In this document: positions 1-21,342 of the stretch, in pieces
How the letters are laid out: the number at the start of each line of letters is the position of its first letter
Numbering within the stretch: position 1 is the first letter of the stretch
Source: a virus
Lineage: Duplodnaviria > Caudoviricetes
Reading direction: 5' to 3' (one strand)
DNA length: 31,433 bases
IMG/VR virus record: IMGVR_UViG_3300022666_000341
Location: 1 to 31,433 of that record
Notes under the pieces: generated by a model
What the model saw: only the letters and a program-made list of their open reading frames with translations
What the model was told of the DNA's origin: nothing
The model's database searches: none
Program-made: the position numbers and the translations under genes

Positions 1-45
1 ATGAAAGCGACCACTTACGAGACCGGAGGCAGGGGTCGAATGGAT

Positions 46-234: not shown

Positions 235-270
235 ATAGCGGTAACTGAGTTTTATTCGAAGAGGCTGAGA

Positions 271-2744: not shown

Positions 2745-3461
2745 ATGAAACAAGGTCAACTGATCAAAACCAGCAACGTCCTCAAAGCCGATGCCACGAT
2801 CAAGTTCCTGCTCAACCGACCTAAGCTGGAGATGGTAGGACTGGGACTGATCTATGGCAAACCCGGACTCGGCAAGACCACCTATGCCAACCGTATGGCC
2901 TTCAGTAACGGGTATATCTATATCCGGCTGGAGGCAACCACCACACCCAAGTCCTTCGCAGTGCAACTGCTGACCTCACTCTACCGACGTTACCACCTAG
3001 GCGAGTACATCCCGGTGGGCACAGCCAACAACCTCTTCAAAGCCTGCCTGCAGGTCTTGGAAGACCATGAAGACACCATCATCGTAATCGATGAGATCGA
3101 CTATGCCTTCCGGCTGCCCCAGTTACTGGGTGCTATACGTGATATCGTGGATGAGACCCTGACAGTGGTGATCCTGGTCGGGATGCAGAATGCCAAGGAT
3201 AAGCTGAACATGATCAATGAGTATTACTTTGATCGCTGCAACAGCTTCTGCGAGTTCGGTTCCCTGACCAAGGCAGATATCAAAGCCATCGCCACCTCGG
3301 TGATGGAGGTCAAGGTCAGTCCGGAGATGGCAGAGGTTATCTACCACCGCTGTGCAGGCAACCTGCGTAAGGCGATCAAGATCATGCACATGCTGGAGAC
3401 AGCGATCATCAAGCAACCCAATATCCCCCTCTCCCAGATCGACTTCCGGGTAGCGCTATGA
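2745..3461 (+). CDS. MuB-like AAA+ ATPase (transposition B protein)
   Basis: Walker A GKPGLGKT, Walker B IIVIDEID, C-terminal GNLR motif; AAGGAG RBS; directly follows the transposase. Confidence 0.9.
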   Translation: MKQGQLIKTSNVLKADATIKFLLNRPKLEMVGLGLIYGKPGLGKTTYANRMAFSNGYIYIRLEATTTPKSFAVQLLTSLYRRYHLGEYIPVGTANNLFKACLQVLEDHEDTIIVIDEIDYAFRLPQLLGAIRDIVDETLTVVILVGMQNAKDKLNMINEYYFDRCNSFCEFGSLTKADIKAIATSVMEVKVSPEMAEVIYHRCAGNLRKAIKIMHMLETAIIKQPNIPLSQIDFRVAL

Positions 3462-5163: not shown

Positions 5164-5373
5164 ATGAGCGTCTTCAATGATGAACGCAACTACCGCACGG
5201 ATGAGATTGCTGATATCCTCCGGGTCGACCGCTCCAGTGTTTACCGCTGGATACGGGACATAGAGAACCCTCTGCCTGCTTTCCGCACCAAAGAGAATGG
5301 TCAATTGCGCTGCAAGGGCAAAGACCTGAATGCCTACTTAGACAAATACAAGGTAAGACCTGAGTATGAGTAA
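5164..5373 (+). CDS. Excisionase-like HTH protein, candidate late-gene regulator (69 aa)
   Basis: GAGGAG at 5149-5154 before ATG 5164 (alternative start 5122); YRTDEIADILRVDRSSVYRWI HTH. Confidence 0.8.
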   Translation: MSVFNDERNYRTDEIADILRVDRSSVYRWIRDIENPLPAFRTKENGQLRCKGKDLNAYLDKYKVRPEYE

Positions 5374-5815
5374 TGCACTCGAGTTCCGTATCAAGCGGGA
5401 CAACTGCAAGGAAGCCTATCTGAACGGTAAGACTGATCCCACTGAGCTGGCGGTGATCTTCGGAGTATCCGATATCACCGTCCGCAAGTGGATCAAGTCC
5501 GGAAAGTGGGATGAGCTATTCAAGGAAGAGCGTAAGCTTGACCATGAGATTAGCTTAGCCCGCAAGAGGGCACTCATCCAGGCACTGCGTGAATATGCTA
5601 AGAATCCTGCGGACACCGCTCTGCAGAGCCTGGTAAGCTTAATCAAACAGAACCAGAAAGACTCTGAGCCTGCCAAGGAACTGAACGACTACATTGTGCG
5701 CTTCCTGGATCAGGTAACCGACTTTATGATCGAGAAAGGGCATGAGACAATGCTCAAACAGTTCCAGGGCATCGTCCTTGACCTTGCTGAGTACTTAAGA
5801 GTTAGAAATGGATAA
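5366..5815 (+). CDS. Probable terminase small subunit (N-terminal HTH, DUF1804-like)
   Basis: AYLNG...ELAVIFGVSDITVRKWIKSGKWDE HTH followed by a helical region; lies just upstream of the large terminase. Confidence 0.65.
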   Translation: MSNALEFRIKRDNCKEAYLNGKTDPTELAVIFGVSDITVRKWIKSGKWDELFKEERKLDHEISLARKRALIQALREYAKNPADTALQSLVSLIKQNQKDSEPAKELNDYIVRFLDQVTDFMIEKGHETMLKQFQGIVLDLAEYLRVRNG

Positions 5816-5948
5816 TATTACAGCCACGGACATGGTTGCCTCCAAGCCTACAGACCTGCCTACCCTCCAAACCCAAACCTGCCAAGCGGAGCCGTCGCCT
5901 CCGGCTCCGCACTTTCATGGTTACCCTCCTACCACTGGTTATGTCTAA
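5808..5948 (+). CDS. 46-aa Pro/Thr-rich bridging ORF between terS and terL
   Basis: ATG 5808 to TAA 5948 (MDNITATDMVASKPTDLPTLQTQTCQAEPSPPAPHFHGYPPTTGYV); overlaps the terS end and the terL start by 8 nt each. Confidence 0.45.
   Translation: MDNITATDMVASKPTDLPTLQTQTCQAEPSPPAPHFHGYPPTTGYV
5886..5916 (+). terminator. GC-rich hairpin, possible attenuator upstream of terL
   Basis: GCGGAGCCG (5886-5894) pairs with CGGCTCCGC (5902-5910): 9-bp stem, 7-nt loop, followed only by a short ACTTTC. Confidence 0.4.
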
Positions 5949-7494
5949 GAAGTTCATTCAGCGGCATAACAAGGCACTGGCGGAGATCGCTTCAAAAACG
6001 ATCTCCGTCTTGCCTTTTATAGACGATAATCCCGAAGCTAAGACCGACAGGATTAGGAGAACCACCGCAGAGGGATGGGATGCCTTCTCATTCTTCTGCC
6101 ATACCTATTTCCCGCATATCTTCCCACTACCTTTTTGCCCAGCACATGAGACTATGTTCGATGAGACTGATAAGGGCTCAGGCATCATTGGAATCACAGG
6201 TTTTCGTGGGCTGGGCAAAACGGTACTCATGGGAGTGGTCTATCCGATCTGGAAGATCATTAAAGGTGAACGCTACGTAATCCATACTGCCGCAGACGTA
6301 GATCTGGCGCAGGAGAGAACTGCCTTCACCTTACATGAACTGCAGAACAATAAGCGGCTCACTATGGATTATCCAGAGCTGCAGCCAGTGGATGCCTTTG
6401 ATCTGGATTTCTATCTCAAAAATAAAGCCAGGATACGTGCCAGAAGTATCAAACAGAGCCATCGTGGAACAATCAATCCCAAGACTGCTAAGCGGCCCGG
6501 GCTAATCGTCTGCGATGATATCGATAAAGAAGAGAACATGGGTAACCAGTCCATTGGTAAACGTAGAATGGAGAAGATCACCCAGGAGCTTGCCGGAGCA
6601 CTCTCCCCCGAGGGAAATGGCAAGATCGTCTGGCTCGGTAACCTGGTACATCCCAATTACTCCATCTGTCAGTTTCAGGAGCTCATATTAGGCGATTTAC
6701 GGGCAGATAATCCAGAATTAGACGTAACATACAAGATTGCATTAAAGACGCACCAAAAAGCGATATTGCGCTTCTCTCTCGAAGATATGCATGGCAAGTC
6801 CATCTGGGAGGAGCAGTACCCCACTGCCACTCTTCCAAACCTTCGAGCCAAGTTCGGACATACCGGTTATCAGAGAGAGATGCTAGGACAGCCGGTAATC
6901 GAAGGTAACATCTTCAAGAACCACTGGTTCACCAAGTACAGAACACTACCGGAACCATCCCAGATGAAGCGGGTCTGGCTCTATGCCGATCCTGCCTGGG
7001 GAGAGAAGGGCTGTTACAAGGCTGTTATCTCCATTGGATATGATGGTAACCGTTTCTACGTGATCCATGTCTGGATACGTCAAACTGAGAATACCAAGTT
7101 CTTCAGATACTACTACGATGCCTATCAGGAATTGGATAGAATCTACAGAGTGAAAGCCAGGGCAGCCTGTGAGACTACTTATGGTCAAGCTCGTATCCTG
7201 GCAGACTTCGATCAGTGGGCACAAGACAACCACCTGCCACCAATAAGCCATCGTATCAAGCGTATAGATAACAAGGATAACAAGAACCTGCGCATCGAGA
7301 GGACTGAGACCATCATCGAGACTACCAAGGTCCTCTTTCCGGAGGGTCAGGATACTCCCACCCTAATATCCCAGTTCCTCACCTATCCTGATGGCTACAT
7401 CGATGGCTGTGATGCTTTGGCAGGATGCCTGGAACGGTTCTCTGAATACGATATCGGCAGGAACAGGGTCAAGGTCAGGAGATTCAGTTTCTGA
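5941..7494 (+). CDS. terL: Terminase large subunit (~517 aa)
   Basis: Walker A GFRGLGKT, Walker B RPGLIVCDDID, coupling motif WLGN, nuclease motifs YADPAWG and IDGCDALAG. ATG 5941 is preferred to TTG 5836, whose extension is low-complexity. Confidence 0.9.
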   Translation: MSKKFIQRHNKALAEIASKTISVLPFIDDNPEAKTDRIRRTTAEGWDAFSFFCHTYFPHIFPLPFCPAHETMFDETDKGSGIIGITGFRGLGKTVLMGVVYPIWKIIKGERYVIHTAADVDLAQERTAFTLHELQNNKRLTMDYPELQPVDAFDLDFYLKNKARIRARSIKQSHRGTINPKTAKRPGLIVCDDIDKEENMGNQSIGKRRMEKITQELAGALSPEGNGKIVWLGNLVHPNYSICQFQELILGDLRADNPELDVTYKIALKTHQKAILRFSLEDMHGKSIWEEQYPTATLPNLRAKFGHTGYQREMLGQPVIEGNIFKNHWFTKYRTLPEPSQMKRVWLYADPAWGEKGCYKAVISIGYDGNRFYVIHVWIRQTENTKFFRYYYDAYQELDRIYRVKARAACETTYGQARILADFDQWAQDNHLPPISHRIKRIDNKDNKNLRIERTETIIETTKVLFPEGQDTPTLISQFLTYPDGYIDGCDALAGCLERFSEYDIGRNRVKVRRFSF

Positions 7495-8369
7495 TGAACT
7501 ACTACGATAAGCTCATGCTTGAGTACTACCGGGTCCTCAACAATGCCTGGAAGACCGAGATCAGAGATGCTACCCGACTAGCCATCCAAATGTTGAGTGA
7601 CATTCCACGAGCTGAGAAGCTCAACCGGGACTCCATAGATAAGCTTATGGGCATCATCAATGCGCAGTTGGGAGATGACTTCGCAGCACTGGTCAATGAG
7701 CCCACCAAAGCGATAATAGACCGCTGTGTGCGGCTCGGACTCAAGGACACGCAAGTGCAAGCTCCGACCAAGACCAGCATCGGACTCTGGGGCATTGAAG
7801 ATCAGCATCTCTCCTCGACTATCCAGAAGCAGCAGTTGTTCTGGATCGGTAATCACTTTGAAGCCGATGTCCGGCAGAACTTTGCTAATACACTCACTAA
7901 AGCCATCGAGCAGGGATACACGAAAGAGATGCTGGCAGATACTCTCAAACAACAGTTTGGGGATATCGCAGAGAAGTCATCATATTACTGGCAGGGACTG
8001 GCAGAGCATACCGCCCTAAGAATACGAGAGTTCGGAAGGTTACAGGGATACAAGAAAGCCAAAGCCAGATACTACAAACTGGTGGTGATCCTGGATGATC
8101 GCACCAGCGACATCTGCCGGGCTCTGGCTGCCCAGGATAAGACATATCCATTAAACGATGCGATTGAAGTTATGGATAACCTCATGGCTCTGGATACCAA
8201 GTCCAACAGCTTGGATGATGCCAGAGACTACATCAAAGCCCTTGCACCCTGGATCAAAGATGATCAGATCGAATACGACTCAGAGATGAACCCAGTCAGT
8301 GTCTCCGGAGCGCATACACCGTTTCCACCGTTTCATTGGAAGTGTAGGACGAGCACCGTATTTTCTTAA
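7494..8369 (+). CDS. Head morphogenesis protein (Mu gpF / SPP1 gp7 family)
   Basis: Signature motifs ILDDRTSDICR and PPFHWKCRT; TGATG overlap with terL. Confidence 0.88.
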   Translation: MNYYDKLMLEYYRVLNNAWKTEIRDATRLAIQMLSDIPRAEKLNRDSIDKLMGIINAQLGDDFAALVNEPTKAIIDRCVRLGLKDTQVQAPTKTSIGLWGIEDQHLSSTIQKQQLFWIGNHFEADVRQNFANTLTKAIEQGYTKEMLADTLKQQFGDIAEKSSYYWQGLAEHTALRIREFGRLQGYKKAKARYYKLVVILDDRTSDICRALAAQDKTYPLNDAIEVMDNLMALDTKSNSLDDARDYIKALAPWIKDDQIEYDSEMNPVSVSGAHTPFPPFHWKCRTSTVFS

Positions 8370-8384
8370 TCTATCACTTTGATG

Positions 8385-8416
8385 TTGACAGTTTTCAATG
8401 CAATTGATCCTTTGCT
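8385..8416 (+). promoter_or_regulatory. Possible island promoter (perfect -35 box)
   Basis: TTGACA at 8385-8390 in the short intergenic region upstream of the brxP RBS; no convincing -10 hexamer at canonical spacing. Confidence 0.3.
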
Positions 8417-8433
8417 ACAAAGGAGAATTGTTA

Positions 8434-10815
8434 GTGTTCAAAGTAACTTGGGACAAAAGTAATAATGGAGTGATCCTCAGTGATGGAATCCCTGAAAATG
8501 AGGCGATACAACCACCTAGACCAGTGTTTTTTGAGGAATTAGATTTACTCGGTTTCGATAAGCATTGGATATACCCGAAAAGCCTAGAACCGTTATTGTG
8601 GGCGGTAGGAAGATCATATTTTTACATGGGGGTTGAAGTTGCTCAATTGAAGGGAGGTGATATATATACTTTACCTGTACCTGAGGTTTTCTATCCCACT
8701 ATTGAAGAGCCAAATAACAAATTATTGCCTATTGATATTGACAAATTAGTATCCATAAATTCAAAATCACTTAGAAGCCTAGAAAATCAATCAATAGATT
8801 TTATACAGCGTACCTACAAGCAATTTTATAATGAGATAGACATCATTGCAGTATCATACAGTGGCGGAAAGGACTCCCAAGTAGTATTGGATTTAGCAGT
8901 AAAAACACTCTCAATTAGGGATTTTCGAATCATTTTTACTGACACAACAATGGAATATCCATTTACTTATGAGAATATCATCGAGACTCAAGAGTTTTAT
9001 AAGCGCAACCATCCTGAATTCGTTATTCACACAGCACATCCATACCGAGACTCTATCGATGATTGGAAGTTGTTCGGCCCACCAAGTAGGATTCACAGAT
9101 GGTGCTGTTCAGTTGATAAAACTGCACCCTTTTCAAGGCTGTTAAATAGCTTTGTAAATCAATCTGGTAAGAAGACACCAAGATCGTTAGTGTTTGTAGG
9201 AGTTAGAAAGGACGAGAGTGCTAATCGAGCTAAATACTCGAGAATTGCACGAGGTGTCAAACACGTTAATCAGATTAATGCTGGTGTCATTCATGATTGG
9301 AATACAACCGAGGTTTTTCTTTATATTCTTCAGAATAGGCTCCCTCTAAATATAGGATATCGAAAGGGATTGAGCAGGGTAGGATGTATGGTATGCCCAT
9401 TCAACACATCTTGGTCAGAAGCTTTAAGCGGTCATTTAAAGATACCAAAATATAGCCAGTATCTTAGCATCATAGAAGATCACGTCAGGCTTCTAGGCAT
9501 TCAAGATGAGTCCAAACTCAAAAAGTACATTTCCGAACAGCAATGGATGAAAAGAGGTGGCGGTGAGGGTGTTGATCAAAAGGGAACAAGTGTTACTTAT
9601 ACAGAGATAGACAATAATCTAATTGTGTTAATACAGAGGTCGAGAGAGAGTATTCTGGAATATATGAAGATTTTGGGCGAATTGCACAGCGTGAAAGTTG
9701 ATGGTGTAATTAGGGGCGAAGTATTATTCAGGGGATTTTCAATCCAGTTTTCATATTACGATATGAATGAATCTGTTAAAGTTGAGTTCTCCAATATTAA
9801 TCACTTGAATGATGTAAAAAGAGCTATCAAAAAAGTAATGCAAAAGGCTGCCTATTGCTCAAATTGTGGTGTATGCGAACTAGAATGTCCGCATGGTGCT
9901 CTTATCACAAATCCAAAAGTTCAAGTTTTACAGTACTGTAAGCATTGTTTAGAATGTCTGGAAGTAAGCAATAAGGGGTGTTTAATAGCTGACTCACTGT
10001 CTATATCCACGGGAGGAAAGAAGATGTCTAAAGAGCTTGATGGATTCGGTAAGTATCAAGATTTCGGAATGAGAGAGTTTTGGTTATCCTCATTCTTGCA
10101 TAATTCCGACTACTATTTTACTGAAGCTAATGGAATGGGACCCAATCAGATTCTGAGTTTTAAAGCATGGTTGCGAGATTGTGAATTGATGAAAGACAAC
10201 CATGTTACTGAGTTAACAAAAATCTTTGTCCAGCATTATAGTGCCCGGTTTGACATAATAATGCAGATTTGTTTGATAAACTTGTCATACAACTCACCCG
10301 TCTTTTTGTGGGCTATGAATAATTTGGCTTGGGGAAGCCAGCATAGCGTCAAAGAAATTATCGACAAAATTACTACTCAATACGAGGTTAGCTTAACTCG
10401 AAAAATTGATAGTGGTGTGAAGTCACTGTTCAACACTATTGAGTGTTTCGACGTAGCCAAAGAAATCGGTTTTTTGCATATCGAAGGAAACAAGAACAAT
10501 CGGACTTTGGTTAAAACTGGTAGCGAAAGCATTCATCCTATAGCATTTCTGTATTGTTTGTATAGACTTCGTGAGGTCACGAATAAGTCCGCTTTTACCG
10601 TTAATGAGCTTTTTGACAACAATGAGTGGGTAACACCCAATAAAGTTTTTGGCATATCGCGTGTATCGTTCATTAGTATGCTGAAATCATTACATAACAC
10701 CCTTCATCATCTTGTAAGGGTGGAAATAGTGGCCGACCTTGATAATGTTTTTATTCGTGAAGGTTCCAGTTCTATCAACTTATTGACTGACATGCAAGTA
10801 CTTGAATTATTATAG
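8434..10815 (+). CDS. brxP: BrxP-like protein: PAPS reductase/PP-loop domain + 4Fe-4S ferredoxin + C-terminal DUF4007-like winged-helix region (793 aa)
   Basis: AAGGAG at 8420-8425 then GTG 8434. PP-loop SYSGGKDS, RWCCSVDK, GVRKDESANR and SRVGCMVCP; ferredoxin motif CSNCGVCELECP...CKHCLEC; C-terminal YQDFGMREFWL...GMGPNQ...KAWL. Confidence 0.85.
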   Translation: MFKVTWDKSNNGVILSDGIPENEAIQPPRPVFFEELDLLGFDKHWIYPKSLEPLLWAVGRSYFYMGVEVAQLKGGDIYTLPVPEVFYPTIEEPNNKLLPIDIDKLVSINSKSLRSLENQSIDFIQRTYKQFYNEIDIIAVSYSGGKDSQVVLDLAVKTLSIRDFRIIFTDTTMEYPFTYENIIETQEFYKRNHPEFVIHTAHPYRDSIDDWKLFGPPSRIHRWCCSVDKTAPFSRLLNSFVNQSGKKTPRSLVFVGVRKDESANRAKYSRIARGVKHVNQINAGVIHDWNTTEVFLYILQNRLPLNIGYRKGLSRVGCMVCPFNTSWSEALSGHLKIPKYSQYLSIIEDHVRLLGIQDESKLKKYISEQQWMKRGGGEGVDQKGTSVTYTEIDNNLIVLIQRSRESILEYMKILGELHSVKVDGVIRGEVLFRGFSIQFSYYDMNESVKVEFSNINHLNDVKRAIKKVMQKAAYCSNCGVCELECPHGALITNPKVQVLQYCKHCLECLEVSNKGCLIADSLSISTGGKKMSKELDGFGKYQDFGMREFWLSSFLHNSDYYFTEANGMGPNQILSFKAWLRDCELMKDNHVTELTKIFVQHYSARFDIIMQICLINLSYNSPVFLWAMNNLAWGSQHSVKEIIDKITTQYEVSLTRKIDSGVKSLFNTIECFDVAKEIGFLHIEGNKNNRTLVKTGSESIHPIAFLYCLYRLREVTNKSAFTVNELFDNNEWVTPNKVFGISRVSFISMLKSLHNTLHHLVRVEIVADLDNVFIREGSSSINLLTDMQVLELL

Positions 10816-10833
10816 AGAGGGGTTAATCGCATC

Positions 10834-13800
10834 ATGTTGATATCAGATTTAGTGTCCTTACAGAAGTCGTTTGTTCCAGCAGTAGATTTAGAAAATGAGC
10901 AAGAATCCTATTGGGAAAGATTCATCCCAATCGACAGTTTTAACATAATCCTTAAGGCACTCATCAAATCAATTCAAAGCAAGGATATTCATGAGAGACA
11001 GTCGATTTGGGTTCAAGGTAGATATGGTACAGGGAAATCGCATGCTGCCATAACTATTAAACACTTGCTATCTGACAATCAGGATAAGACTTTGAATTAC
11101 TGTGCGAATGTCATAGATGACAACGAACTCAGGGCCTTGTTAAAAACAATGCGTAGTAAACACAGAATCCTACCAGTATTATTAAAGGGCACAACTAACA
11201 TATTTGATCTAAGATCATTTAATCTGGCTATTGAAAAAGCCGTAGTCAAGGCACTAACAGACAATAATTTAGTATTATCTACGAAAAGTGATTTTGCAAA
11301 GCATATTGACTATTTAAATTCGATGCAACCTAGCAATGGCTGGGATAGTTTTATTCGGGATAACATCAACTTATCTCAGTATGTTGCGAACCAGAAAGAT
11401 TTGATCCTGAAACTACAACAGGAAGATGTACAAGTTTTACGAGCCCTGGAGAATGCTCTATCATCAATTCAAGTTATGATATCTCATACGAGTATTTCTC
11501 AGTGGTTAAAGGAAGTAGTTAACGAGGTAAGGAAAACCACTGAATACACAGAAATTCTAATATTTTGGGACGAGGCAACACATCTGCTCGAATTAGTAAA
11601 CAGCGATCATTACGTAAAAGAGCTTCAAGGCATTGCGGATTTAGCTGCAAGTAATGGAATTTATCTGTATATGATTAGCCACCGAAACATCGAACAACTC
11701 AGGTCAAACATCTCAAACGACGTGCTTCAGACAGTTATGGGAAGGTTTAAGCAATTAAATTATGAGATGTCACCAATTACGACATATCAAATTATGAATG
11801 CATCTATTTGTAAAAATCGTACACCAGAGTATGTAGCCATAACAAGCTCTTTTAAAGAAAACCATGAAAATCTAGTCAGGGTTATTTCCGATCACAGTCT
11901 CGACATAAAAGCGTCCGATCAACTAACGGGTTTATGGCCATTTCATCCGTATACTGTTTTCCTCTGTTCATACATTGTGGAAAATATTGGATCTACTGAA
12001 AGGAGTGTTTTCAAGTATCTGTATGATGATAACAAAGGCTTCAAAGGCTTTATAGAAGGCCAGGAAGCTACCAGCGATTCTGTTATTACTGCCGATCACT
12101 TATGGGAGTATTTCATAGATGATTTTCTCAATAATGAATCCAGCAACTATTTAACAGTATTAACTCAGTGGGATCTCCATAAAGATTCTGTTACAAAGGC
12201 TGGGAATGAATATCTGAAAGTGTTTGAAGGCATACTATTGCTAAATGCTTTACATCGATCATCTCTATACATTCATCAGGATAAGAGTTTAACAGCGCCA
12301 AATCTTAAAAACATACTGCTGATGTTCAGTAAAACCAATTTGGAGATTGCTGTTGATATTGTGATTGAATATCTGGATAAAAATCAGATCATATACAAGA
12401 ACCCCAATGGTTTGTTATTGATTTCGAATATGAGTATTTCACCGTCTGAGCTTGAGGGATATAAAGTTCAAATGGAAGACCATTACAAAAAGAACGATAG
12501 TGTTGTACTTTCAATTTTAGACACGAAGCTTCAAAGAATAACAACACTAATAAACGAGCCTACTTATAGGCCGGTAGAAGTTTTATATTTAGATGCAAAA
12601 TACACCCTTAACCATGCCAGAAGTAAGGTTTTAGGTAAAAGTGCTTTTTCTGCGATGCATAGCATCCACTTGGTGTTCATAATTTCGCAAAGTGCTTCGC
12701 ATGTGCAGTCTGCGGAGAAAATAATCGAGGCGATGCTGGAGGAAGAAAGCTCACAAAATATTGTTTTTGTCGTTCTTGATAAGTTGTTTGACGACAAATC
12801 CACAGATAAATATATAGAAATTAGAGCTAGAGAGGAAGCTGCAAGAGTCCATAACTACAAAGATGATCAAGCTGCTTATAAGCGGAATGCTGATGATATA
12901 GTGGATAAGTGGATTCAAGAAGTTAGAAATAGCTATTTGAACATTTTTTATGTTGTGCCGGGCCAGGGTCTAACTAATTACCAAGTTCTATTATCTGCAT
13001 TCGGACTGTCAATTAACACGAGAATCGCTCCCATAATTTTTTACAAGGGATTCGATACTCTTGCAGATAAAACCACAAAATCAATCTGGGAAACGAAAAG
13101 AGCAAAGCAAGCTGCAGCTAATTTCCTTGCCTCTCCAACCCTAAGCGATGTAGTTGAAAAGTGCTCTGGCTCTTATGGGACTCTAAAAACCATAGTACAA
13201 GCAAAAAATGATCAATACATAGTCGATGAAAACTTGAACTTACTGAAAAGTTTTGGACAACACCCAACCAGTTTTGTTAGCGTAGGTATCGATGATAAAT
13301 TATCTACCTTACAAGGGGTGACTTCATTTGAACTTGCCGAGCTTATAAGTTTTTTGAGAGAGCCTCCTTATGGATACTATGGCAATACAATTACATACGC
13401 ACTTCTTGGATTCATTCTTCGAAAGTATGCTGGAGTATTTTATGAAGTTGGCAAAGGTGTACCAATCGACTCAGCGAGGATGTTAGAGTTGATTGAAAAG
13501 ATATTCAAATATTGGGAAGCTGGAAGTCCTCAAGTCTACAGTTTTCCCATTAGATTAGGGTCTCCTGAGGAAAACAAGCTCTGCTCTCTATTAGTAGATA
13601 TTTTTGGAATTGAAGCAGTAAAAGGCATTCAAAACACGAGGTGGAAGATTAGGGAATGGATAAACATAATTGGCTATCCAATCTGGGTATACAAAACATG
13701 TAACTCCCTCATAGAAAAGACCATCGATAAACTAGCTGAATTCGTACAAAGCACTGATGTTGATTTAACCAACGCGGATATTGTTACGTTGCTGAATGAA

Positions 13801-14265
13801 CTTGATGCATTGTCATTTGAGATTAAAGAAGCTTTGCAGCAAGATGCCGCAGCACTTTTCCACAAATGGATCAATTCGATAAATCCAAATTACTCCAAAT
13901 CAGAAGTTGCATTAGTGTGGAATTATGTGAAGCAGAAAATGCCTGAGAATGTTGATGTGTATGGATGGAATGAAGATAAGGTAAAAATAGCAGTTTTAGA
14001 GTATTCCCTGGATGCCGAAATCAAGTTGGGGGCTAACGAAGGGCAAGATAACGGGGATAAAAATGGTGGAAATGGAAACACAACCGAAACTAATCCTGGG
14101 GATGACTCTACCCGATTCAGCGATTCTGTTAGTAAGGTGCAAAAAGAAAAAGCAATCAAAATTGTACAGGATAACCAGAGTGACTATCTTGAGATTATGA
14201 TAGCTATGTTTGAATTATTCCCAGGTTCTGTATCCTACATTATCGAAAGATACCTGGAGCATTGA
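10834..14265 (+). CDS. brxC: BrxC/PglY-like large P-loop ATPase (1143 aa)
   Basis: Walker A GRYGTGKS, Walker B ILIFWDE, VMGRF, WPFHPYT and GSTERSVFKYL; lies between brxP and pglZ. Confidence 0.85.
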   Translation: MLISDLVSLQKSFVPAVDLENEQESYWERFIPIDSFNIILKALIKSIQSKDIHERQSIWVQGRYGTGKSHAAITIKHLLSDNQDKTLNYCANVIDDNELRALLKTMRSKHRILPVLLKGTTNIFDLRSFNLAIEKAVVKALTDNNLVLSTKSDFAKHIDYLNSMQPSNGWDSFIRDNINLSQYVANQKDLILKLQQEDVQVLRALENALSSIQVMISHTSISQWLKEVVNEVRKTTEYTEILIFWDEATHLLELVNSDHYVKELQGIADLAASNGIYLYMISHRNIEQLRSNISNDVLQTVMGRFKQLNYEMSPITTYQIMNASICKNRTPEYVAITSSFKENHENLVRVISDHSLDIKASDQLTGLWPFHPYTVFLCSYIVENIGSTERSVFKYLYDDNKGFKGFIEGQEATSDSVITADHLWEYFIDDFLNNESSNYLTVLTQWDLHKDSVTKAGNEYLKVFEGILLLNALHRSSLYIHQDKSLTAPNLKNILLMFSKTNLEIAVDIVIEYLDKNQIIYKNPNGLLLISNMSISPSELEGYKVQMEDHYKKNDSVVLSILDTKLQRITTLINEPTYRPVEVLYLDAKYTLNHARSKVLGKSAFSAMHSIHLVFIISQSASHVQSAEKIIEAMLEEESSQNIVFVVLDKLFDDKSTDKYIEIRAREEAARVHNYKDDQAAYKRNADDIVDKWIQEVRNSYLNIFYVVPGQGLTNYQVLLSAFGLSINTRIAPIIFYKGFDTLADKTTKSIWETKRAKQAAANFLASPTLSDVVEKCSGSYGTLKTIVQAKNDQYIVDENLNLLKSFGQHPTSFVSVGIDDKLSTLQGVTSFELAELISFLREPPYGYYGNTITYALLGFILRKYAGVFYEVGKGVPIDSARMLELIEKIFKYWEAGSPQVYSFPIRLGSPEENKLCSLLVDIFGIEAVKGIQNTRWKIREWINIIGYPIWVYKTCNSLIEKTIDKLAEFVQSTDVDLTNADIVTLLNELDALSFEIKEALQQDAAALFHKWINSINPNYSKSEVALVWNYVKQKMPENVDVYGWNEDKVKIAVLEYSLDAEIKLGANEGQDNGDKNGGNGNTTETNPGDDSTRFSDSVSKVQKEKAIKIVQDNQSDYLEIMIAMFELFPGSVSYIIERYLEH

Positions 14266-14267
14266 TT

Positions 14268-16667
14268 ATGTACAGAGTGCAAGAATTCAATGACATTAGC
14301 AAGTTGATCGCTGCGTTGAATGATGATATGAACAATACAACATCAGCTACCTTGAATAGATTTCCAATTCGTTTTATCCTTGTGCCCACCTTTAATGAAC
14401 TGAGACTACTAGTTAATCACTTTATCAAAAACAAGACTCCTCTTGTCAAAATTGATGCCCTACTTCCACACGCTGATGGATGGCCTTCAGTAGACCTGAT
14501 AATTAACACTGTTAAGCAGATTAATCAAACTACTGCTCTTATTCCCCTTTCCGAAGTCTTAAGATTTTCAAAGAAAGACGAATTCAATAATGTTCTTAAT
14601 AGCTTAGCACAACAAATGTCAATGGCATCATACAGAATATTCATTCCTATTGTTGGTCTTTCTCAAAGATTTAAGTCTCAGTTTTATAATTCATTTAGTA
14701 GAAAAGCAAACTGGCCAGATGTTTATCATCTTTGCGGATCAACCGACGAACACATTGTCGTAAAGCATCTACCCATTCATATGTTTCCCCAAAATAAAGA
14801 TCTCATCGTTAATAAAACCATAGTATCATCTTCATCAGATTGGTTCAAGCTATGGAGTAAGCCTATAACGAATACTGTGTATTGTACCTCAGCACTTCTT
14901 TTTCATAAGTCTATAGAATTTCAACCAGATGAATATATAGACAAACGTGATATCGTGTCTTATTCTGATGTATTGAGGGAAATTTACGATATTGAGTTAG
15001 CTATGGTATTCAAGGATGAAGACTCAGAATTTGCGGAAAATATGATAAAGTACATTAACAACAAAGGATTATGCAGTATTACAGAAGAGGCATTGTACAG
15101 CATAATTCTAAATGTCCATGATGTCTCAGAATTAGATGATGAAAAAATAGTCTCATTACTTGTCAGCAATGACTCTGAGAATGGGAAACTAAAAACTTGG
15201 CTAGTGTCGAAGCTAGTGACTGACGATTATATTATCGTCGGGCAGTACCTTAAGAGTGTGCTTTCAAAAAGTACGGGTGGATTCCATTTGCTCGATTTCT
15301 TGAATGAGCTTTGGTTTAGTATTTTTACATGGGATATCCCAAGAACTCCTGATCTATATGACCGCAGAAAGATAATTGACTTTATTTACAGACATTTTGC
15401 AACGATCACGCTTCCTGATGAAGAAAAACTACAGAAAAAGCTGGAAGCCATTTTAGTCACACAGATGCCCTTTCAAACGAAATTATTATGTTTCACAGCT
15501 GTAACTAATGCCGAAAAAGAAGTATTGGTCAGTGTTTATTCAAAGACTACAACCCATGATGAACCAATATTCTGGGATACGATTCAACCCATATACCCTG
15601 AGTTTTATTCTTATGCAAAATGGGATGTAGCAATCCATAAAGAGGATTGGATTACAAATTACTTTAAGGAGTATGTTCAGAGCAAAGCCAGAAATGAGAA
15701 GAGTGGGGTATTATCTGAGATTCTCAGTGATGTGTCTAAAGACCATGAATCATTCTGGACCTGGTATCATGAGCTATTTTCAAGAAGACCTGATATATCT
15801 GAAAGCCAAATTGTTTGGGTTGATGGATTAGGAATCGAATGGTTACCCGTTTTGTTGAAAGCACTTTTCGTAGTAGCGCAAAGTTCTGGTTATAGTATTG
15901 ACGAAGTGGTTATCTCGAGCTGCAAATTACCAAGCACAACTCAATATAACAGATATGATTCCGCAGTCAAAATCAATCTTTTAGATCAATACATCCACAA
16001 TCAGTGTCCATATAAGCATCCAAATGACTTAGTTAGAGAGATTGATCTAGTCAAGAGTATTGCGACAAAAATATTTAGCATTGGGAAAGATGATGAGTTT
16101 TGGATTGTGTCGGATCATGGTTTTACATTCCTATCACAAAAAAAATATGGCATAGAAAAGAAATATAATATTCAAAATGCCGAACACGATGGGCGTTATT
16201 TCTTTTCTAATAGTGCATATGCGGAAGACCATGAATTGTTGTCTGTGACGGACTCAAATGGAAGCAACATTGTTATGTCATTAACTCATAATTCTTTGTT
16301 TAATGTGCCTTATCGTGAAGTACATGGTGGATGTACACCGGAAGAAGTAATGATCCCTTTCATAAAAATCAAAAAGCAAGTTCCTGTGGGGCAATTTGTT
16401 GTGAAGCTATTATCCGCAGAGATTAATGTAAAGAAGCCTATTGTTAGCTTCGAAATATGTCCATCTCCCAATATTGTGTCACTAAAACTTGAGCTTACTT
16501 CAAAATGTGTAAGTATTCCTATGTATTATGATGGAGGTTTATGGCATGCAAATATTAGTAGCCACTTTAAGCCAGGTGATTACATGATTAAACTAGAAGT
16601 AGATACTGTTATTCATGAATATTCAGTTAAGTTAATAGGCGGAATGAAAGAGAGAGATTTAATATGA
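14268..16667 (+). CDS. pglZ: PglZ/BrxZ alkaline-phosphatase-fold protein (799 aa)
   Basis: GGAG at 14256-14259 before ATG 14268; metal-binding motifs VWVDGLG, LPSTT, IVSDHG and VHGG. Confidence 0.9.
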   Translation: MYRVQEFNDISKLIAALNDDMNNTTSATLNRFPIRFILVPTFNELRLLVNHFIKNKTPLVKIDALLPHADGWPSVDLIINTVKQINQTTALIPLSEVLRFSKKDEFNNVLNSLAQQMSMASYRIFIPIVGLSQRFKSQFYNSFSRKANWPDVYHLCGSTDEHIVVKHLPIHMFPQNKDLIVNKTIVSSSSDWFKLWSKPITNTVYCTSALLFHKSIEFQPDEYIDKRDIVSYSDVLREIYDIELAMVFKDEDSEFAENMIKYINNKGLCSITEEALYSIILNVHDVSELDDEKIVSLLVSNDSENGKLKTWLVSKLVTDDYIIVGQYLKSVLSKSTGGFHLLDFLNELWFSIFTWDIPRTPDLYDRRKIIDFIYRHFATITLPDEEKLQKKLEAILVTQMPFQTKLLCFTAVTNAEKEVLVSVYSKTTTHDEPIFWDTIQPIYPEFYSYAKWDVAIHKEDWITNYFKEYVQSKARNEKSGVLSEILSDVSKDHESFWTWYHELFSRRPDISESQIVWVDGLGIEWLPVLLKALFVVAQSSGYSIDEVVISSCKLPSTTQYNRYDSAVKINLLDQYIHNQCPYKHPNDLVREIDLVKSIATKIFSIGKDDEFWIVSDHGFTFLSQKKYGIEKKYNIQNAEHDGRYFFSNSAYAEDHELLSVTDSNGSNIVMSLTHNSLFNVPYREVHGGCTPEEVMIPFIKIKKQVPVGQFVVKLLSAEINVKKPIVSFEICPSPNIVSLKLELTSKCVSIPMYYDGGLWHANISSHFKPGDYMIKLEVDTVIHEYSVKLIGGMKERDLI

Positions 16668-18112
16668 ACCAGATTCTCGACAGTAAAATCAGATCAGCAT
16701 TCCCTGCTGAATCTGTGTATAAAACTCCTGATAGATATAGTGTTTTTTCCGGAAAGATACTACCTTCGTTCATAAAAGACTGGTTAATTGCAAAGTACTC
16801 TGATAGTTATGGGAATCTTGACACTCATGCAATCAGCGATTTTTTAAAAGAACATATTCCCAACAAAAACAGCAATATCAAAAGCAGGTTGCGAGTTAAC
16901 AAAGAAGAATTAGTTATATTGTCCAGACTCTTAATAGAGACGGATATAAAGAACAATTTGCTAAGATTCGCTATACCTGATCTTGGGATAAAAATCACTG
17001 AAGGATTAATTCCAGACTATATAGCAAAGAAGCATGTAGAATTGAAGGATGGTGAAGTTTGGGGAGTTATAACGATTATATACAAACCACCAATCGACAA
17101 AGTTCCGGGACATATTGAATTGATTGACTTTAAGGCTTTCAATCCTTATGATGTTGATGTGGACTATTACAAAGAAGCTCGCAAAGAATTTTCGGTAGGA
17201 GATTGGGTTGATCTGTTAATTAGGTCAATGGAATATAATCCAGATTATCAAAACTCAGACAATCCGTCGCAGAGCTTCACCTTATCAAGGAAATTACTCT
17301 TCTTGAGTAGGTTGATTATTCATGTCGAACCCAATGTAAACATGATTGAGCTTGCCCCCAAAGGTACGGGTAAGTCATACGTTTTTGGAAATTTAAGCAA
17401 GTATGGGTGGCTTGTTAGTGGGGGGGTCGTCTCACGAGCCAAGCTCTTATATGACATGCAAAGAAAAACACCAGGATTGTTGAAGTTGTATGATTTTGTT
17501 GCACTTGATGAGATTGAAACAATTAAGTTTACTGATGAGAATGAGATTCAGGGTGCGTTAAAAAACTACTTAGAGTCTGGAACATATACTGTTGCCGATT
17601 ATAGAGGTGTATCCAATTCTGGATTAATGTTGTTAGGTAATATTCAACTAAACGAGTTTTATAGACCTGTCAATAGTTCCTATTTTTCTGGATTGCCTAC
17701 AATATTTAAATCATCTGCTCTATTAGACAGATTCCATGGTTTCATTGAAGGGTGGGAACTAGTTAGAATTACTGAGGATATTAAAGTCAAGGGTCAAACT
17801 CTTAATGTGGAGTATTTTTCTGAGATTCTCCATAAACTCCGCGAGATCGGTGATTATGCTATGATTGTGAATGATATGCTTGAAATCCCAAAGAATGCCG
17901 ACACAAGGGACGTGAAAGCTGTTATAAAGCTTACGACTGCTTACCTTAAGTTACTATTCCCTCATGTTCAAACTAAGGACGATCTGACAAAAGAGGACTT
18001 CCAAAAATACTGTCTTGCCCCAGCAATCTATAAAAGATCAATTATTAGAAAGCAGCTATCCATAATGGACCCAGAATACAAGGAGCAGATGCCCATAATA
18101 ACTATTAAATAG
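16664..18112 (+). CDS. brxL: BrxL-like MCM-type AAA+ ATPase without C-terminal Lon protease domain (482 aa)
   Basis: WVDLLIRSMEYNP, ELAPKGTGKSY, VALDEI, SALLDRFHGFIEGW and TRDVKAV; the protein ends shortly after the AAA+ lid. ATGA overlap with pglZ. Confidence 0.88.
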   Translation: MNQILDSKIRSAFPAESVYKTPDRYSVFSGKILPSFIKDWLIAKYSDSYGNLDTHAISDFLKEHIPNKNSNIKSRLRVNKEELVILSRLLIETDIKNNLLRFAIPDLGIKITEGLIPDYIAKKHVELKDGEVWGVITIIYKPPIDKVPGHIELIDFKAFNPYDVDVDYYKEARKEFSVGDWVDLLIRSMEYNPDYQNSDNPSQSFTLSRKLLFLSRLIIHVEPNVNMIELAPKGTGKSYVFGNLSKYGWLVSGGVVSRAKLLYDMQRKTPGLLKLYDFVALDEIETIKFTDENEIQGALKNYLESGTYTVADYRGVSNSGLMLLGNIQLNEFYRPVNSSYFSGLPTIFKSSALLDRFHGFIEGWELVRITEDIKVKGQTLNVEYFSEILHKLREIGDYAMIVNDMLEIPKNADTRDVKAVIKLTTAYLKLLFPHVQTKDDLTKEDFQKYCLAPAIYKRSIIRKQLSIMDPEYKEQMPIITIK

Positions 18113-18135
18113 ATGATTTCCAAGTAAATCCCTTT

Positions 18136-18187
18136 AAGGACAGTCATTGTGTGTTTTTCACAATAAGCAATGACTGTCCTTTTTTTT
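18136..18187 (+). terminator. Rho-independent terminator of the BREX-like operon
   Basis: AAGGACAGTCATTG (18136-18149) pairs with CAATGACTGTCCTT (18168-18181); T8 run at 18180-18187. Confidence 0.85.
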
Positions 18188-18205
18188 CTATTCTACTTTT
18201 CTGTC

Positions 18206-18241
18206 GCATCCTTATGCATCCGTATTTGTGTTAATACAGGG
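18206..18241 (+). promoter_or_regulatory. Putative late promoter/activator site, copy 2
   Basis: GCATCC direct repeat (GCATCCTTATGCATCC); similar to 5076-5111; lies between the terminator and the first late gene. Confidence 0.45.
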
Positions 18242-18295
18242 TAGTGGCTTCCTTGCTCCAGATAGAGTATCCAATACTACTCGCAAGGAGATACG

Positions 18296-18721
18296 ATGGA
18301 AGCCACACTGTTGGAACGCATCAAAGAACAACTGGTTAGACACGAAGGTCTGAGGCTCAAGCCATACCGCTGCACTGCAGGTAAGCTGACCATCGGCATT
18401 GGCCGCAATCTCGATGACTGTGGTATTTCCCAGACCGAAGCTTATGTGCTCTTGGAGAATGATATCCAGAACTGCGAGAAACAGCTTTTGGATGAGATTC
18501 CAGAGATATACAATGCTATGGATGAAGTCCGCAAATCGGTGCTGCTGAACATGTGTTTCAATCTGGGTATCGGTGGGCTGCTTGGTTTCAACAACACGCT
18601 GGCTTATATAGCTGCCGGAGACTGGGAACGAGCTGCCAATGGTATGCTTGCCTCCAAGTGGGCAAAGCAGGTTGGTCGCAGAGCGATAGAGCTATCTGAA
18701 CTGATGAGGAAAGGTAAGTGA
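18296..18721 (+). CDS. Phage lysozyme/endolysin (T4-like GH24 fold)
   Basis: HEGLRLKPYRCTAGKLTIGIGRNL (E-x8-C-x5-T triad), LLNMCFNLG and SKWAKQVGRRA; AAGGAG RBS. Confidence 0.9.
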   Translation: MEATLLERIKEQLVRHEGLRLKPYRCTAGKLTIGIGRNLDDCGISQTEAYVLLENDIQNCEKQLLDEIPEIYNAMDEVRKSVLLNMCFNLGIGGLLGFNNTLAYIAAGDWERAANGMLASKWAKQVGRRAIELSELMRKGK

Positions 18722-19685: not shown

Positions 19686-20083
19686 CCGCTCATGAGAAGT
19701 TTATCGCAGACCGGAATCGGATAGTCGATGCATTGAAGTTTTCTGATATCCCCACCATCCAGTTCAACAAAGATGCTATCCCCAAGCAGTTGCCTTGTGC
19801 CATCGTGATTCTCGACTCAGAGACAGGCAAGAATGGCACTTCCAGACAGTATGTGAGTACTGATCTGGCATGGACAGTCTTCCTAATCGTCAATGCACAG
19901 AACGTATCTGATCCAGATTCCGACTTGTACCAACTCAAAGAGAAGTTTCGGAGTTTCTACCTCAAGCTGATGAACCGGGACCTGCCCAGTGTGGAGTATT
20001 ATACCAGCCGCATCGATGGCACTCGTCTTGTACGCATTGCCAAGATCGATCTGCTCAAGGCAGGAACTGGAGCCTCTGCATGA
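19682..20083 (+). CDS. Putative tail terminator/completion protein (133 aa)
   Basis: GAGGTG RBS and ATGA overlap at 19682; LPCAIVI motif and beta-strand pattern resemble tail terminators. Confidence 0.55.
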   Translation: MTAHEKFIADRNRIVDALKFSDIPTIQFNKDAIPKQLPCAIVILDSETGKNGTSRQYVSTDLAWTVFLIVNAQNVSDPDSDLYQLKEKFRSFYLKLMNRDLPSVEYYTSRIDGTRLVRIAKIDLLKAGTGASA

Positions 20084-21267
20084 GAGTAATGCGACTGGGT
20101 GGCTATAACCTGGCAATAAGCTCTGCTGCTGGTCTCCTGGAGACCAAATACAAGCCTGAGCCGATTGACTTATCCAAACTGAGTAGAGTCGGTAAGCAAC
20201 TGATCTCCAAAGCAGCAGAGACTAAGAAAGTAGTCTCTCAGCCCTATTCTATGGGTAATCTGCTCAACCTCCTGGATACCGATGAGTACCACTCCGGTTG
20301 TGTGGATGCTCTTTCTATGGCAACTGTGATGGAGTTCGACTGCAAGAACAGCCAGGTCAAGTCGTGGATGGAAGCTGCCGAGTTTCCTGCCTGTGAAGAC
20401 CAGACCACTATCCTGGCAGAGATGATCAAGTTCTATCTCGCCTGTGGTAATGGCTTCCTGATCAAGATGCGTAATGCTCAGGGTCAGTGGATGGGACTGG
20501 AACGCATGCTGCCCAGCGAAGTGCAGATCGTGGAGAACTATGACGAGTTCGGCTTCTTTCGACCCAACTACATCCAGGTGAAGAACAACCAGAAGAAGGA
20601 CTTCGCCTATGCCGACATCATCCACATCAAGAAGAGTACCCACAAGAGTAATGCCTGGGGCTTAGCCTGCCTGCCGATAGCTATCAATGTCGAGATACTT
20701 TCTGAGATCAAGACCTTCGACTACAACAACTTCAAGAACGGTCTCATGATCGACTATTTCGTAATAGTGGAGGGTGGAACTCTACGTGATGGCACTGTAA
20801 CTGATGAGCAGGGAAATGAAGTACTGACCGATGCCTATACCGAGATTGAGAAGGCTCTCACTGAGGTCAAAGGCAATGCCAAGAGCCATTCTACTGTCCT
20901 GATCGAGAGCGAGAGCCGGGACGTGAAGATACGCCTCGAACCACTGCGTCAACAGGACAGAGAAGGTGGCTTCATCACCCTTAAGAAAGACCTGAGAGAA
21001 GGTATCTTCGCTTATCACCGGGTCCCTGCAAGGATTGTCTCCCAGCTTATCCCAGGGCAGCTTGGTGGCGATAACAAGAGCGATATGCTGATGTTCTACC
21101 ACTTCGTAGTCAAGCCGCTGCAGAATCGCCTGGCACTCACCCTGGCAATAGAGTTCAACTTTGAGTTCGGGTGGAACCTCACTCCGGACGACTTCAATTT
21201 CGGCAATCTCACCGAGAAGCTTCAATCTGCGGATGAGCAACTCTTTATGCAGAATCGCAATCTATAA
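20080..21267 (+). CDS. Portal protein (PBSX/P2-like)
   Basis: YLACGNGFL, DIIHIKK...WG, NNFKNG, AYHRVPARIV and FYHFVVKPLQ; directly upstream of the protease-capsid gene. Confidence 0.85.
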   Translation: MRVMRLGGYNLAISSAAGLLETKYKPEPIDLSKLSRVGKQLISKAAETKKVVSQPYSMGNLLNLLDTDEYHSGCVDALSMATVMEFDCKNSQVKSWMEAAEFPACEDQTTILAEMIKFYLACGNGFLIKMRNAQGQWMGLERMLPSEVQIVENYDEFGFFRPNYIQVKNNQKKDFAYADIIHIKKSTHKSNAWGLACLPIAINVEILSEIKTFDYNNFKNGLMIDYFVIVEGGTLRDGTVTDEQGNEVLTDAYTEIEKALTEVKGNAKSHSTVLIESESRDVKIRLEPLRQQDREGGFITLKKDLREGIFAYHRVPARIVSQLIPGQLGGDNKSDMLMFYHFVVKPLQNRLALTLAIEFNFEFGWNLTPDDFNFGNLTEKLQSADEQLFMQNRNL

Positions 21268-21342
21268 CACGAGCCATATTATGCAATATTTCAAACAGCA
21301 AACCAGCAATCTACAACCCATCACTAACCCTAAGGAGGTACA

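What the first reader, a model, noticed from the sequence alone, without database searches (positions are those of the whole stretch)
8370..18187. Four-gene BREX type 4-like (probable DNA phosphorothioation) cassette carried inside a Mu-like transposable phage
Seen: four intact, tightly linked AT-rich genes (PAPS-reductase/4Fe-4S/DUF4007-like fusion, large ATPase, PglZ, BrxL) inserted between gpF and the late lysis-head-tail operon, with their own terminator. Known: brxP-brxC-pglZ-brxL defines BREX type 4, which has a PAPS-reductase protein related to DndC/SspD instead of the PglX methyltransferase and has been linked to phosphorothioate modification. Inference: the phage delivers this modification/defence system to lysogens, where it could exclude competing phages or mark phage DNA as self. 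The system type is known; I do not know of it as cargo of a replicative-transposition phage.
Basis: partly seen in the sequence, partly recalled or inferred. Interest (0 to 1): 0.85.

Follow-up and report, generated by a model that had tools for sequence, protein, structure and literature searches.

The report
BREX-4 cassette in jumping-phage cargo slot
A jumping (Mu-like) prophage of an uncultured Cloacimonadota bacterium carries an intact four-gene BREX type 4 system, likely to mark DNA with sulfur and predicted to block rival phages, in a roughly 10-kb swap-in slot that related phages fill mostly with restriction-modification genes.

Summary
Four intact, AT-rich genes match BrxP, BrxC, type-4 PglZ and BrxL in canonical order, show purifying selection, and end in a strong terminator hairpin. 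One unbroken contig covers the cassette and both junctions at host depth, so a chimera is unlikely. The carrier is a 34.2-kb Mu-like prophage of Cloacimonadota with a 5-bp target duplication and TA ends. The larger result is the site. The gpF–endolysin interval is a family-wide cargo slot: 73 measured slots hold 56 distinct cargo sets (3.5–11.4 kb, median 9.6), and 43 of 56 carry restriction-modification genes. Three separate BREX-4 lineages occupy it. Phosphorothioation is likely, by homology to the validated Bacteroides system and a host NifS-like gene. Anti-phage action, expression and virion packaging were not tested. BREX-4 is known, and so are prophage defence hotspots. A slot three times the P2 average that holds BREX and type I RM was not found in my ten literature searches. 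This scan noted the slot, and a prophage-borne BREX-4, earlier on other DNA.

The parts
566..2719 (+). DDE transposase (MuA-like)
   Evidence: Pfam Mu-transpos_C E 3e-17, rve; PHROG 310 transposase E 8e-76
2745..3461 (+). MuB/TniB-like AAA transposition ATPase
   Evidence: PHROG 296 E 1e-25; Pfam AAA_22, TniB
5366..7494 (+). Terminase small and large subunits
   Evidence: PHROG 1889 (E 3e-8) and PHROG 38 (E 8e-59)
7494..8369 (+). gpF head morphogenesis gene; the left wall of the slot, with homology to relatives ending at about 8350-8352
   Evidence: Pfam Phage_Mu_F; junction listing; loose ends at 8350/8352 in runs X2-X4
8385..8433 (+). Candidate cassette promoter (TTGACA at 8385, no good -10 box) and ribosome-binding site
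   Evidence: a TTGACA lies at a similar distance upstream of brxP in the closest non-phage relative G038. Function not tested.
8434..10815 (+). brxP: PP-loop PAPS-reductase (SspD-like) + ferredoxin-type Cys cluster + DUF4007/SspB-like fusion, 793 aa
   Evidence: PADLOC BrxP E 1e-231; PF01507 above cut-off; SxGKDS residues and 9 Cys invariant in 34 homologs; model pLDDT 87 matches APS/PAPS reductases and SspB 6JUF
10834..14265 (+). brxC: SspC-like ATPase, 1143 aa, with Walker A at 62-69 and Walker B at 243-247
   Evidence: PADLOC BrxC E 3e-196, SspC E 4e-27; motifs
14262..16667 (+). pglZ (brxZ), type 4, 801 aa
   Evidence: NCBIfam BREX_PglZ_4 444 bits against cut-off 140; PADLOC PglZ E 2e-113
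16664..18112 (+). brxL: N-domain plus AAA+ ATPase, without the Lon protease domain, 482 aa
   Evidence: TIGR02688 456 bits against 329.3; matches residues 32-456 of the 679-aa BrxL in PDB 8EMC
18136..18187 (+). Intrinsic terminator hairpin and U-tract closing the cassette
   Evidence: z -6.55
18197..18295 (+). Conserved leader upstream of the late operon; the right wall of the slot
   Evidence: Conserved in the complete slots listed
18296..18721 (+). Endolysin, first gene of the late operon
   Evidence: Pfam Phage_lysozyme E 7e-15
20080..23082 (+). Portal and protease-capsid fusion
   Evidence: Pfam Phage_portal, Peptidase_S78_2; PHROG 12, 3017, 1623
23860..24405 (+). Probable tail tube protein
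   Evidence: ESM Atlas lead only: Phage_TTP_16 cluster at rank 12, score 0.93
25100..26634 (+). Two tandem Dam-family adenine methyltransferases in the phage backbone
   Evidence: PF02086 above cut-off for both
26634..29483 (+). Tape measure protein, 949 aa
   Evidence: PHROG 3336 E 7e-18

Best explanation
This is an intact BREX type 4 operon (brxP-brxC-pglZ-brxL) filling the ~10-kb exchangeable cargo slot of a Cloacimonadota Mu-like prophage, where it likely puts sulfur into the lysogen's DNA backbone and is predicted to block unmarked incoming phages. Shown: gene identities, order, intact motifs, purifying selection, the prophage ends, and the slot's variable, mostly restriction-modification cargo. 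Inferred, step 1: a host NifS-like desulfurase supplies sulfur, BrxP (PP-loop, Fe-S cysteines, SspB-like DNA-binding domain) and the BrxC ATPase install phosphorothioates at a short motif, as brxP plus brxC do in Bacteroides. Inferred, step 2: PglZ (nuclease/phosphodiesterase fold) and the BrxL ATPase act on DNA that lacks the mark. Inferred, step 3: because the phage copies itself inside the host chromosome, progeny DNA would carry the mark too. Inferred, step 4: cassettes are picked up from chromosomal defence islands and swapped between phages by recombination in the conserved walls, with size limited by what the head can package.
For: Profiles; fold; invariant PP-loop and cysteines. dN/dS against the closest relative is 0.08 (brxP), 0.14 (pglZ) and 0.01 (brxL). 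brxP and brxC with host SufS suffice for phosphorothioation (PMC12914056, section read). The host genome G001 has a NifS/IscS-like gene with PLP-lysine and catalytic-cysteine motifs, and its only DndC-like match is this brxP. Prophage ends, 5-bp duplication and restored host ORF; empty site in a related strain in run X2. Slot: 73 measured, 56 cargo sets, 40 of 56 between 9.0 and 11.4 kb; 43 of 56 with RM genes; left arm nearly constant, 9.4-9.7 kb in 15 of 16. Three BREX-4 lineages in the slot. The closest relative (82% BrxP) lies among RM genes with no phage genes seen on its contig.
Against: No modification, restriction or expression was measured. PMC12914056 says anti-phage activity of these systems awaits investigation, and that brxZ and brxL are not needed for modification. 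The cassette has no cysteine desulfurase, and the host candidate scores below every NCBIfam cut-off. No clear -10 box follows the TTGACA. The prophage is at host depth in X1, so there is no sign of induction. The slot also carries non-defence cargo (surface proteins, radical-SAM clusters, efflux pumps). dS values are near saturation and brxC dS could not be computed. The size cap has exceptions in broken elements: about 13.2 kb in G134, and about 11.9 kb in G087 if its truncated cassette is complete. Four long slots could not be resolved. A more distant relative in G001 has an empty slot.
Confidence: 0.72

Rival explanations
1. The operon works mainly as an addiction module. PglZ and BrxL harm unmodified DNA, so losing the prophage or brxP kills the cell, which keeps the element in the chromosome; defence is secondary.
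For: A brxP deletion could not be obtained in B. salyersiae (PMC12914056). BREX-4 cassettes persist intact while the flanking phage genes are broken in G088, G087, G037 and G134. RM-rich cargo fits selfish behaviour (recalled).
Against: A brxC deletion, which removed all phosphorothioates, was viable in the same study. Retention in remnants is equally expected if the host benefits. Some slots hold only non-toxic-looking cargo.
Confidence: 0.12
2. The cassette modifies DNA but does not restrict. The sulfur mark serves as epigenetic or redox cargo, or shields phage DNA from host nucleases.
For: Modification needs only brxP and brxC, and no restriction test for type 4 was seen in the sections read. 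The backbone carries two methyltransferases and avoids GGCC (10 observed, 162 expected), so anti-restriction matters to this phage.
Against: pglZ and brxL are intact, translationally coupled and under strong purifying selection. They take 3.9 kb of a size-limited slot. All three slot lineages keep all four genes where the contig is long enough to tell. Type 1 PglZ is a nuclease that contributes to defence (bioRxiv 2025.03.26.645558, passages).
Confidence: 0.1
3. The element no longer makes virions and moves only as a large cargo transposon, so the slot size reflects history rather than packaging.
For: Single-copy depth in X1. No tail fibre or adsorption gene was recognised. Many relatives are broken remnants.
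Against: Terminase, portal, protease-capsid, tape measure and endolysin ORFs are intact. Slot sizes pile up just under 11.4 kb while the left arm stays constant. Left ends with 39 different flanks show many separate insertions.
Confidence: 0.1
4. The cassette-phage join is an assembly chimera.
For: The only contig that bridges both junctions is from X1, which the tool marks as a possible source of this DNA, so it is not independent. All evidence is from short-read contigs.
Against: A 9,974-bp X1 contig spans 8268-18241 with no differences at depth 134.7, against 136-142 for host flanks. L081 in G001 has the same join. Other cargo sets break at the same two points, and other BREX-4 lineages sit in the same slot.
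Confidence: 0.02

Closest known systems
BREX type 4 (brxPCZL) phosphorothioation systems, validated in Bacteroides salyersiae (PMC12914056; surveyed in PMC12839542)
   Same: Same four genes and order; BrxP is an SspD-SspB-like fusion with the extra ferredoxin-type Cys cluster; no PglX; relies on a host desulfurase, as 44% of type 4 loci do.
   Different: Minimal operon with no mcrA, brxR or desulfurase; carried inside a transposable prophage. The word prophage does not occur in the main text of either paper. Motif and activity unknown.
Prophage defence hotspots of P2-like phages and P4-like satellites (PMC9122126)
   Same: A fixed site between conserved phage genes, filled with many unrelated AT-rich systems, enriched in defence genes and limited by capsid size.
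   Different: P2 and P4 slots average 3.2 and 2.6 kb and lack BREX and type I RM. This slot has a median of 9.6 kb, about 29% of the genome here, and holds both. The carrier transposes instead of integrating at a fixed site.
Phage Mu and D3112-type transposable phages (saltoviruses)
   Same: Repressor, DDE transposase, AAA partner, gpF, repeated end motifs and a 5-bp target duplication.
   Different: Ends read TA, not TG, in 33 of 39 left ends; D3112-group genomes start with TGT (PMC5977238). PBSX-like portal and protease-capsid fusion. Accessory DNA is 29% against the 6-10% quoted for Mu-like phages (bioRxiv 2024.10.15.618418).
SspABCD-SspE phosphorothioate defence
   Same: BrxP matches SspD and SspB, and BrxC matches SspC.
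   Different: No SspE; PglZ and BrxL stand in the effector position.

Membership tests
BREX type 4 | BrxP: PAPS-reductase domain, usually fused to DUF4007/SspB | tested here: met
   PADLOC BrxP E 1e-231; PF01507 above cut-off, DUF4007 E 9e-5 below cut-off; fold matches PAPS reductases and SspB
BREX type 4 | BrxC/SspC-like ATPase with Walker motifs | tested here: met
BREX type 4 | Type-4 PglZ | tested here: met
   NF033445 444 bits against 140
BREX type 4 | BrxL | tested here: met
   TIGR02688 above cut-off; Lon domain absent
BREX type 4 | Order brxP-brxC-pglZ-brxL with no PglX methyltransferase | tested here: met
BREX type 4 | Linked cysteine desulfurase (in 56% of taxa, so optional; PMC12839542) | tested here: not met
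   None in the cassette; a NifS-like gene lies elsewhere in G001
BREX type 4 | Phosphorothioate DNA modification | not testable with these tools
   Inferred from PMC12914056
BREX type 4 | Phage exclusion | not testable with these tools
   No assay; open for these systems in print too
Mu-like transposable phage | DDE transposase plus AAA transposition ATPase and repressor | tested here: met
   S24 repressor left of the window in G001
Mu-like transposable phage | 5-bp target duplication and repeated inverted end motifs | tested here: met
   empty site in run X2
Mu-like transposable phage | TG...CA terminal dinucleotides | tested here: not met
   This element reads TA at both ends; family left ends: 33 TA, 5 TG, 1 CA of 39
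Mu-like transposable phage | Virion and packaging genes | tested here: met
   TerL, portal, protease-capsid, tape measure, endolysin; tail tube is an Atlas lead; no fibre gene recognised
Mu-like transposable phage | Replicative transposition and packaging with host DNA | tested here: inconclusive
   Many different flanks across the family, but this copy is at host depth in X1
Prophage defence hotspot (P2/P4 kind) | Fixed position between conserved genes with highly variable cargo | tested here: met
   56 cargo sets in 73 slots
Prophage defence hotspot (P2/P4 kind) | Enrichment for defence systems | tested here: met
   43 of 56 with RM genes; others include BREX-4, SIR2-HerA, TIR and DndD-like cargo
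Prophage defence hotspot (P2/P4 kind) | Lysogens are protected by the cargo | not testable with these tools
   Uncultured host; no assay

The most novel reading that the evidence does not exclude
These Cloacimonadota transposable phages give up nearly a third of their headful to a swappable DNA-identity slot. Each phage marks its own progeny with a methyl or sulfur code and excludes relatives that carry a different code, so the slot is a kin-discrimination locus and the main vehicle by which whole BREX-4 and type I RM systems spread and are left behind in this phylum.
Probability: 0.3. Interest if true: 0.75.

Novelty: new variant of a known kind. Interest (0 to 1): 0.52.

Why it matters
Large multi-gene systems such as BREX and type I RM were reported absent from the best-studied prophage hotspots. 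Here a transposable phage family carries them in a slot of about 10 kb, and 5 of 11 BREX-4 loci whose context I checked in this phylum lie in that slot. That offers a concrete route for the spread of DNA phosphorothioation. The bare four-gene operon is also a clean unit for testing whether BREX-4 restricts phages, which is still open, and lysogen and empty-site strains of the same host exist in nature. The slot's unannotated cargo is a source of candidate defence genes.

Tried and rejected
Chimera: rejected. Cassette as its own mobile unit: no recombinase in it, and no flanking repeat pair among the 20 direct families and 25 inverted pairs shown. Single-protein scans of viral contigs with BrxP and BrxL found nothing, although L022 in that collection holds a BREX-4, so these scans reach close relatives only; the metagenome scan gave one locus without phage genes. 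GenBank phage collection: four 'Bacteriophage sp.' scaffolds match BrxC and BrxP. I checked 2 of them (MT835511, MT835506; both marked UNVERIFIED) and found no capsid, terminase or portal hit at E 1e-8, so I do not count them as phages; the others were not checked. No RNA holder was listed, which says nothing about expression. PDB sequence search with PglZ gave no hit. Four-mer bias gave no candidate for the modification motif. The IQ-TREE run timed out; I used FastTree, which warns of long-branch joins, the slot label was not more clustered than shuffles (82 of 500 as low), and the one-clade test was not run. A -10 consensus for the conserved leftward TTGACA was not found. Weak partial 'mad3' PADLOC hits were not counted as defence. 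Goldfarb 2015 is not held.
Full report
Observation. The four ORFs are present and intact at 8434-10815, 10834-14265, 14262-16667 and 16664-18112. Their GC is 0.35-0.38 against about 0.50 for the phage genes. A hairpin at 18136-18181 with a U-tract folds better than all 200 shuffles. brxP most likely starts at GTG 8434 rather than ATG 8398. One X1 contig of 9,974 bp covers 8268-18241 without a difference, at depth 134.7, and host flanks in the same run are at 136-142. X1 may be the source of this DNA, so this is not independent support. Locus L081, in the Cloacimonadota genome G001, has the same join at 100% identity.

Identity of the genes. PADLOC gives BrxP (E 1e-231), BrxC (3e-196), PglZ (2e-113) and BrxL (6e-205). 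NCBIfam places the third gene in BREX_PglZ_4 and the fourth in BrxL, both above cut-off. In 34 of the 120 listed BrxP homologs that I aligned, the PP-loop residues and nine cysteines are invariant. The predicted BrxP model (pLDDT 87) matches APS/PAPS reductases and SspB. Walker motifs of BrxC and BrxL and phosphatase-like motifs of PglZ are present (the motif patterns are recalled, not aligned to a structure). BrxL lacks the Lon domain. Against the closest relative, G038 (68-90% identity), dN/dS is 0.08, 0.14 and 0.01 for brxP, pglZ and brxL; dS is near saturation and could not be computed for brxC.

The carrier. The window is a trimmed part of a prophage. In G001 the element extends 1,182 bp to the left and 1,581 bp to the right, 34,196 bp in all, with a 5-bp target duplication and inverted end motifs. 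It interrupts a DUF3795 gene whose frame closes again when the element is removed. A related strain in run X2 shows the empty site. A repressor, DDE transposase, AAA partner, terminase, gpF, endolysin, portal, protease-capsid and tape measure are present. The ends read TA, as do 33 of 39 family left ends. Depth equal to the host gives no sign of induction.

The slot. gpF searches returned the best 80 of 218 viral hits and 78 loci from the best 80 of 86 genome hits. I kept 128 of these 158 loci (gpF end present, at least 1.5 kb downstream). The slot was complete in 55. A search of 22 longer ones resolved 18 more by coordinates, assuming contig identity for three MAG loci; four stayed unresolved. 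The 73 slots hold 56 distinct cargo sets, 3.5-11.4 kb, median 9.6, with 40 of 56 at 9.0 kb or more and none empty. The left arm is 9.4-9.7 kb in 15 of 16 elements. Both walls are sharp: homology stops in the last gpF codons and resumes about 100 bp before the endolysin. Cargo is wholly on the minus strand in 40 of 56 sets, and a leftward TTGACA sits 100-105 bp before the endolysin in 40 of 46 distinct junctions. The window is one of two all-plus sets, lacks that hexamer, and has its own TTGACA and terminator.

Cargo. I scanned 275 of 293 cluster representatives with PADLOC at E 1e-20. 43 of 56 sets hold at least one RM gene, of types I, II, IIG or III. This count transfers labels across 40%-identity clusters, includes lone methyltransferases, and sees only the first 10 kb of long slots. 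The other 13 include BREX-4 (2), SIR2-HerA, TIR, a DndD-like cluster, radical-SAM clusters, surface proteins and an efflux pump. Against a strict cap or a need for cargo: G134's slot is about 13.2 kb, G087's would be about 11.9 kb, both in broken elements, and a 60%-identical relative in G001 has no cargo and no endolysin.

BREX-4 in the slot. 13 of 232 genomes of the phylum match BrxP at E 1e-30. I checked context for 11; G202, G238 and a second G219 hit were not checked. Five lie between slot walls (G001, G088, G087, G037, G134) and six showed no phage gene of this family nearby, one of them cut by a contig end. Slot-borne BrxP falls into three groups at 28-36% mutual identity over full length: the window; L022/G088/G087/G037, in the opposite orientation; and G134. 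A FastTree tree needs three changes of the label, and the window's sister is the non-phage G038 locus among RM genes. This fits repeated capture, but the tree is unrooted, warns of long branches, and no one-clade test was run. In four of the five genomes the flanking phage genes are broken while the cassette genes seen are whole.

Mechanism. Shown in print: brxP and brxC with a host desulfurase make phosphorothioates, brxZ and brxL are not needed for that, and anti-phage activity is untested (PMC12914056; abstract, one results section, discussion and passages read). [quoted passage not shown] G001 has a NifS-like gene and no other DndC-like match. I therefore infer that lysogeny switches on DNA phosphorothioation, that PglZ and BrxL act on unmarked DNA, and that progeny made by transposition are marked. 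Headful packaging, as in Mu (PMC5977238, passages), is my inferred cause of the size limit. Addiction, modification without restriction, and loss of virion formation are the rivals.

Comparison and novelty. The operon passes every sequence test for BREX type 4 (PMC12839542, passages and the type-4 section). Prophage defence hotspots are known, but P2 and P4 slots average about 3 kb and lack BREX and type I RM (PMC9122126, one section and passages). Type I RM does occur in phages generally, at 9% of RM systems in gut phage genomes (bioRxiv 2024.10.26.620412, passages). Lone SspD and DndC genes were noted in Sinorhizobium prophages (PMC12429752, passages). Passages of PMC10121019, PMC13232261 and bioRxiv 2024.10.15.618418 gave no BREX-4 on a transposable phage. 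Ten searches (listings only, unless named above) found no description of this slot or of BREX-4 on a Mu-like phage. The library lacks most subscription papers, and I read no supplements; the locus tables of the BREX surveys may list such loci. Earlier notes of this scan describe the same slot and phage-borne phosphorothioation loci on other DNA; I saw them after my own analysis.

Verdict. The finding is real and correctly named. The system is known; the carrier and its large, RM-dominated slot are a new variant of the prophage hotspot. Interest 0.52.

Noticed in passing
G001:C1:7426 and G001:C2:266551 (element ends); family left ends: The ends read TA rather than TG: 33 TA, 5 TG and 1 CA among 39 left ends. 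This departs from the Mu/D3112 rule.
   Followed up: partly
About 100-105 bp upstream of the endolysin in related loci (e.g. L012, L053): A leftward TTGACA in 40 of 46 distinct junctions, pointing into the slot, where most cargo is on the minus strand. It may be a built-in cargo promoter; no -10 consensus was found.
   Followed up: partly
L129:6285-11701: Slot cargo with a DndD above cut-off and a DndE-like plus HerA-like ATPase fusion, with three small unknown genes and no DndC: a second phosphorothioate-related cargo type.
   Followed up: partly
L052, L011, L042, L113, L120, L134 slots: Large surface proteins, several with T9SS/FlgD-like C-terminal tails and some with S8 protease domains, occur as cargo.
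   Followed up: partly
L001, L021, L107 slots; L097 and L103 slots: Radical-SAM/SPASM clusters, some with ABC transporters, and an RND efflux set occur as cargo.
   Followed up: no
L124:639-4466: A Pycsar-like cyclase and effector with E1-E2 and JAB genes next to a type I RM system in the slot.
   Followed up: no
L223 (G001:C13:67500-73500): A related element (gpF 60%) with an empty slot and no endolysin: gpF is followed within about 160 bp by the head gene.
   Followed up: yes
window 25100-26634: Two tandem Dam-family methyltransferases in the tail region. The backbone strongly avoids GGCC (10 observed, 162 expected), CGCG and CTAG.
   Followed up: no
window 45-237: Several direct and inverted copies of a TGTGACAAT-type motif at the start of the early region, also near the left end in L160; possibly repressor or transposase sites.
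   Followed up: no
L180:5580-7814, L181:14152-16320, L186:3999-6041: Non-phage BREX-4 loci have a 680-745 aa gene with an RNA polymerase alpha-CTD-like domain just upstream of brxP; the window's cassette lacks it.
   Followed up: no
L053:16396-17685 and its cluster: The commonest cargo protein has no PADLOC hit at E 1e-20 or Pfam hit at E 1e-5; the ESM Atlas points to an HSDR_N-type restriction domain.
   Followed up: partly
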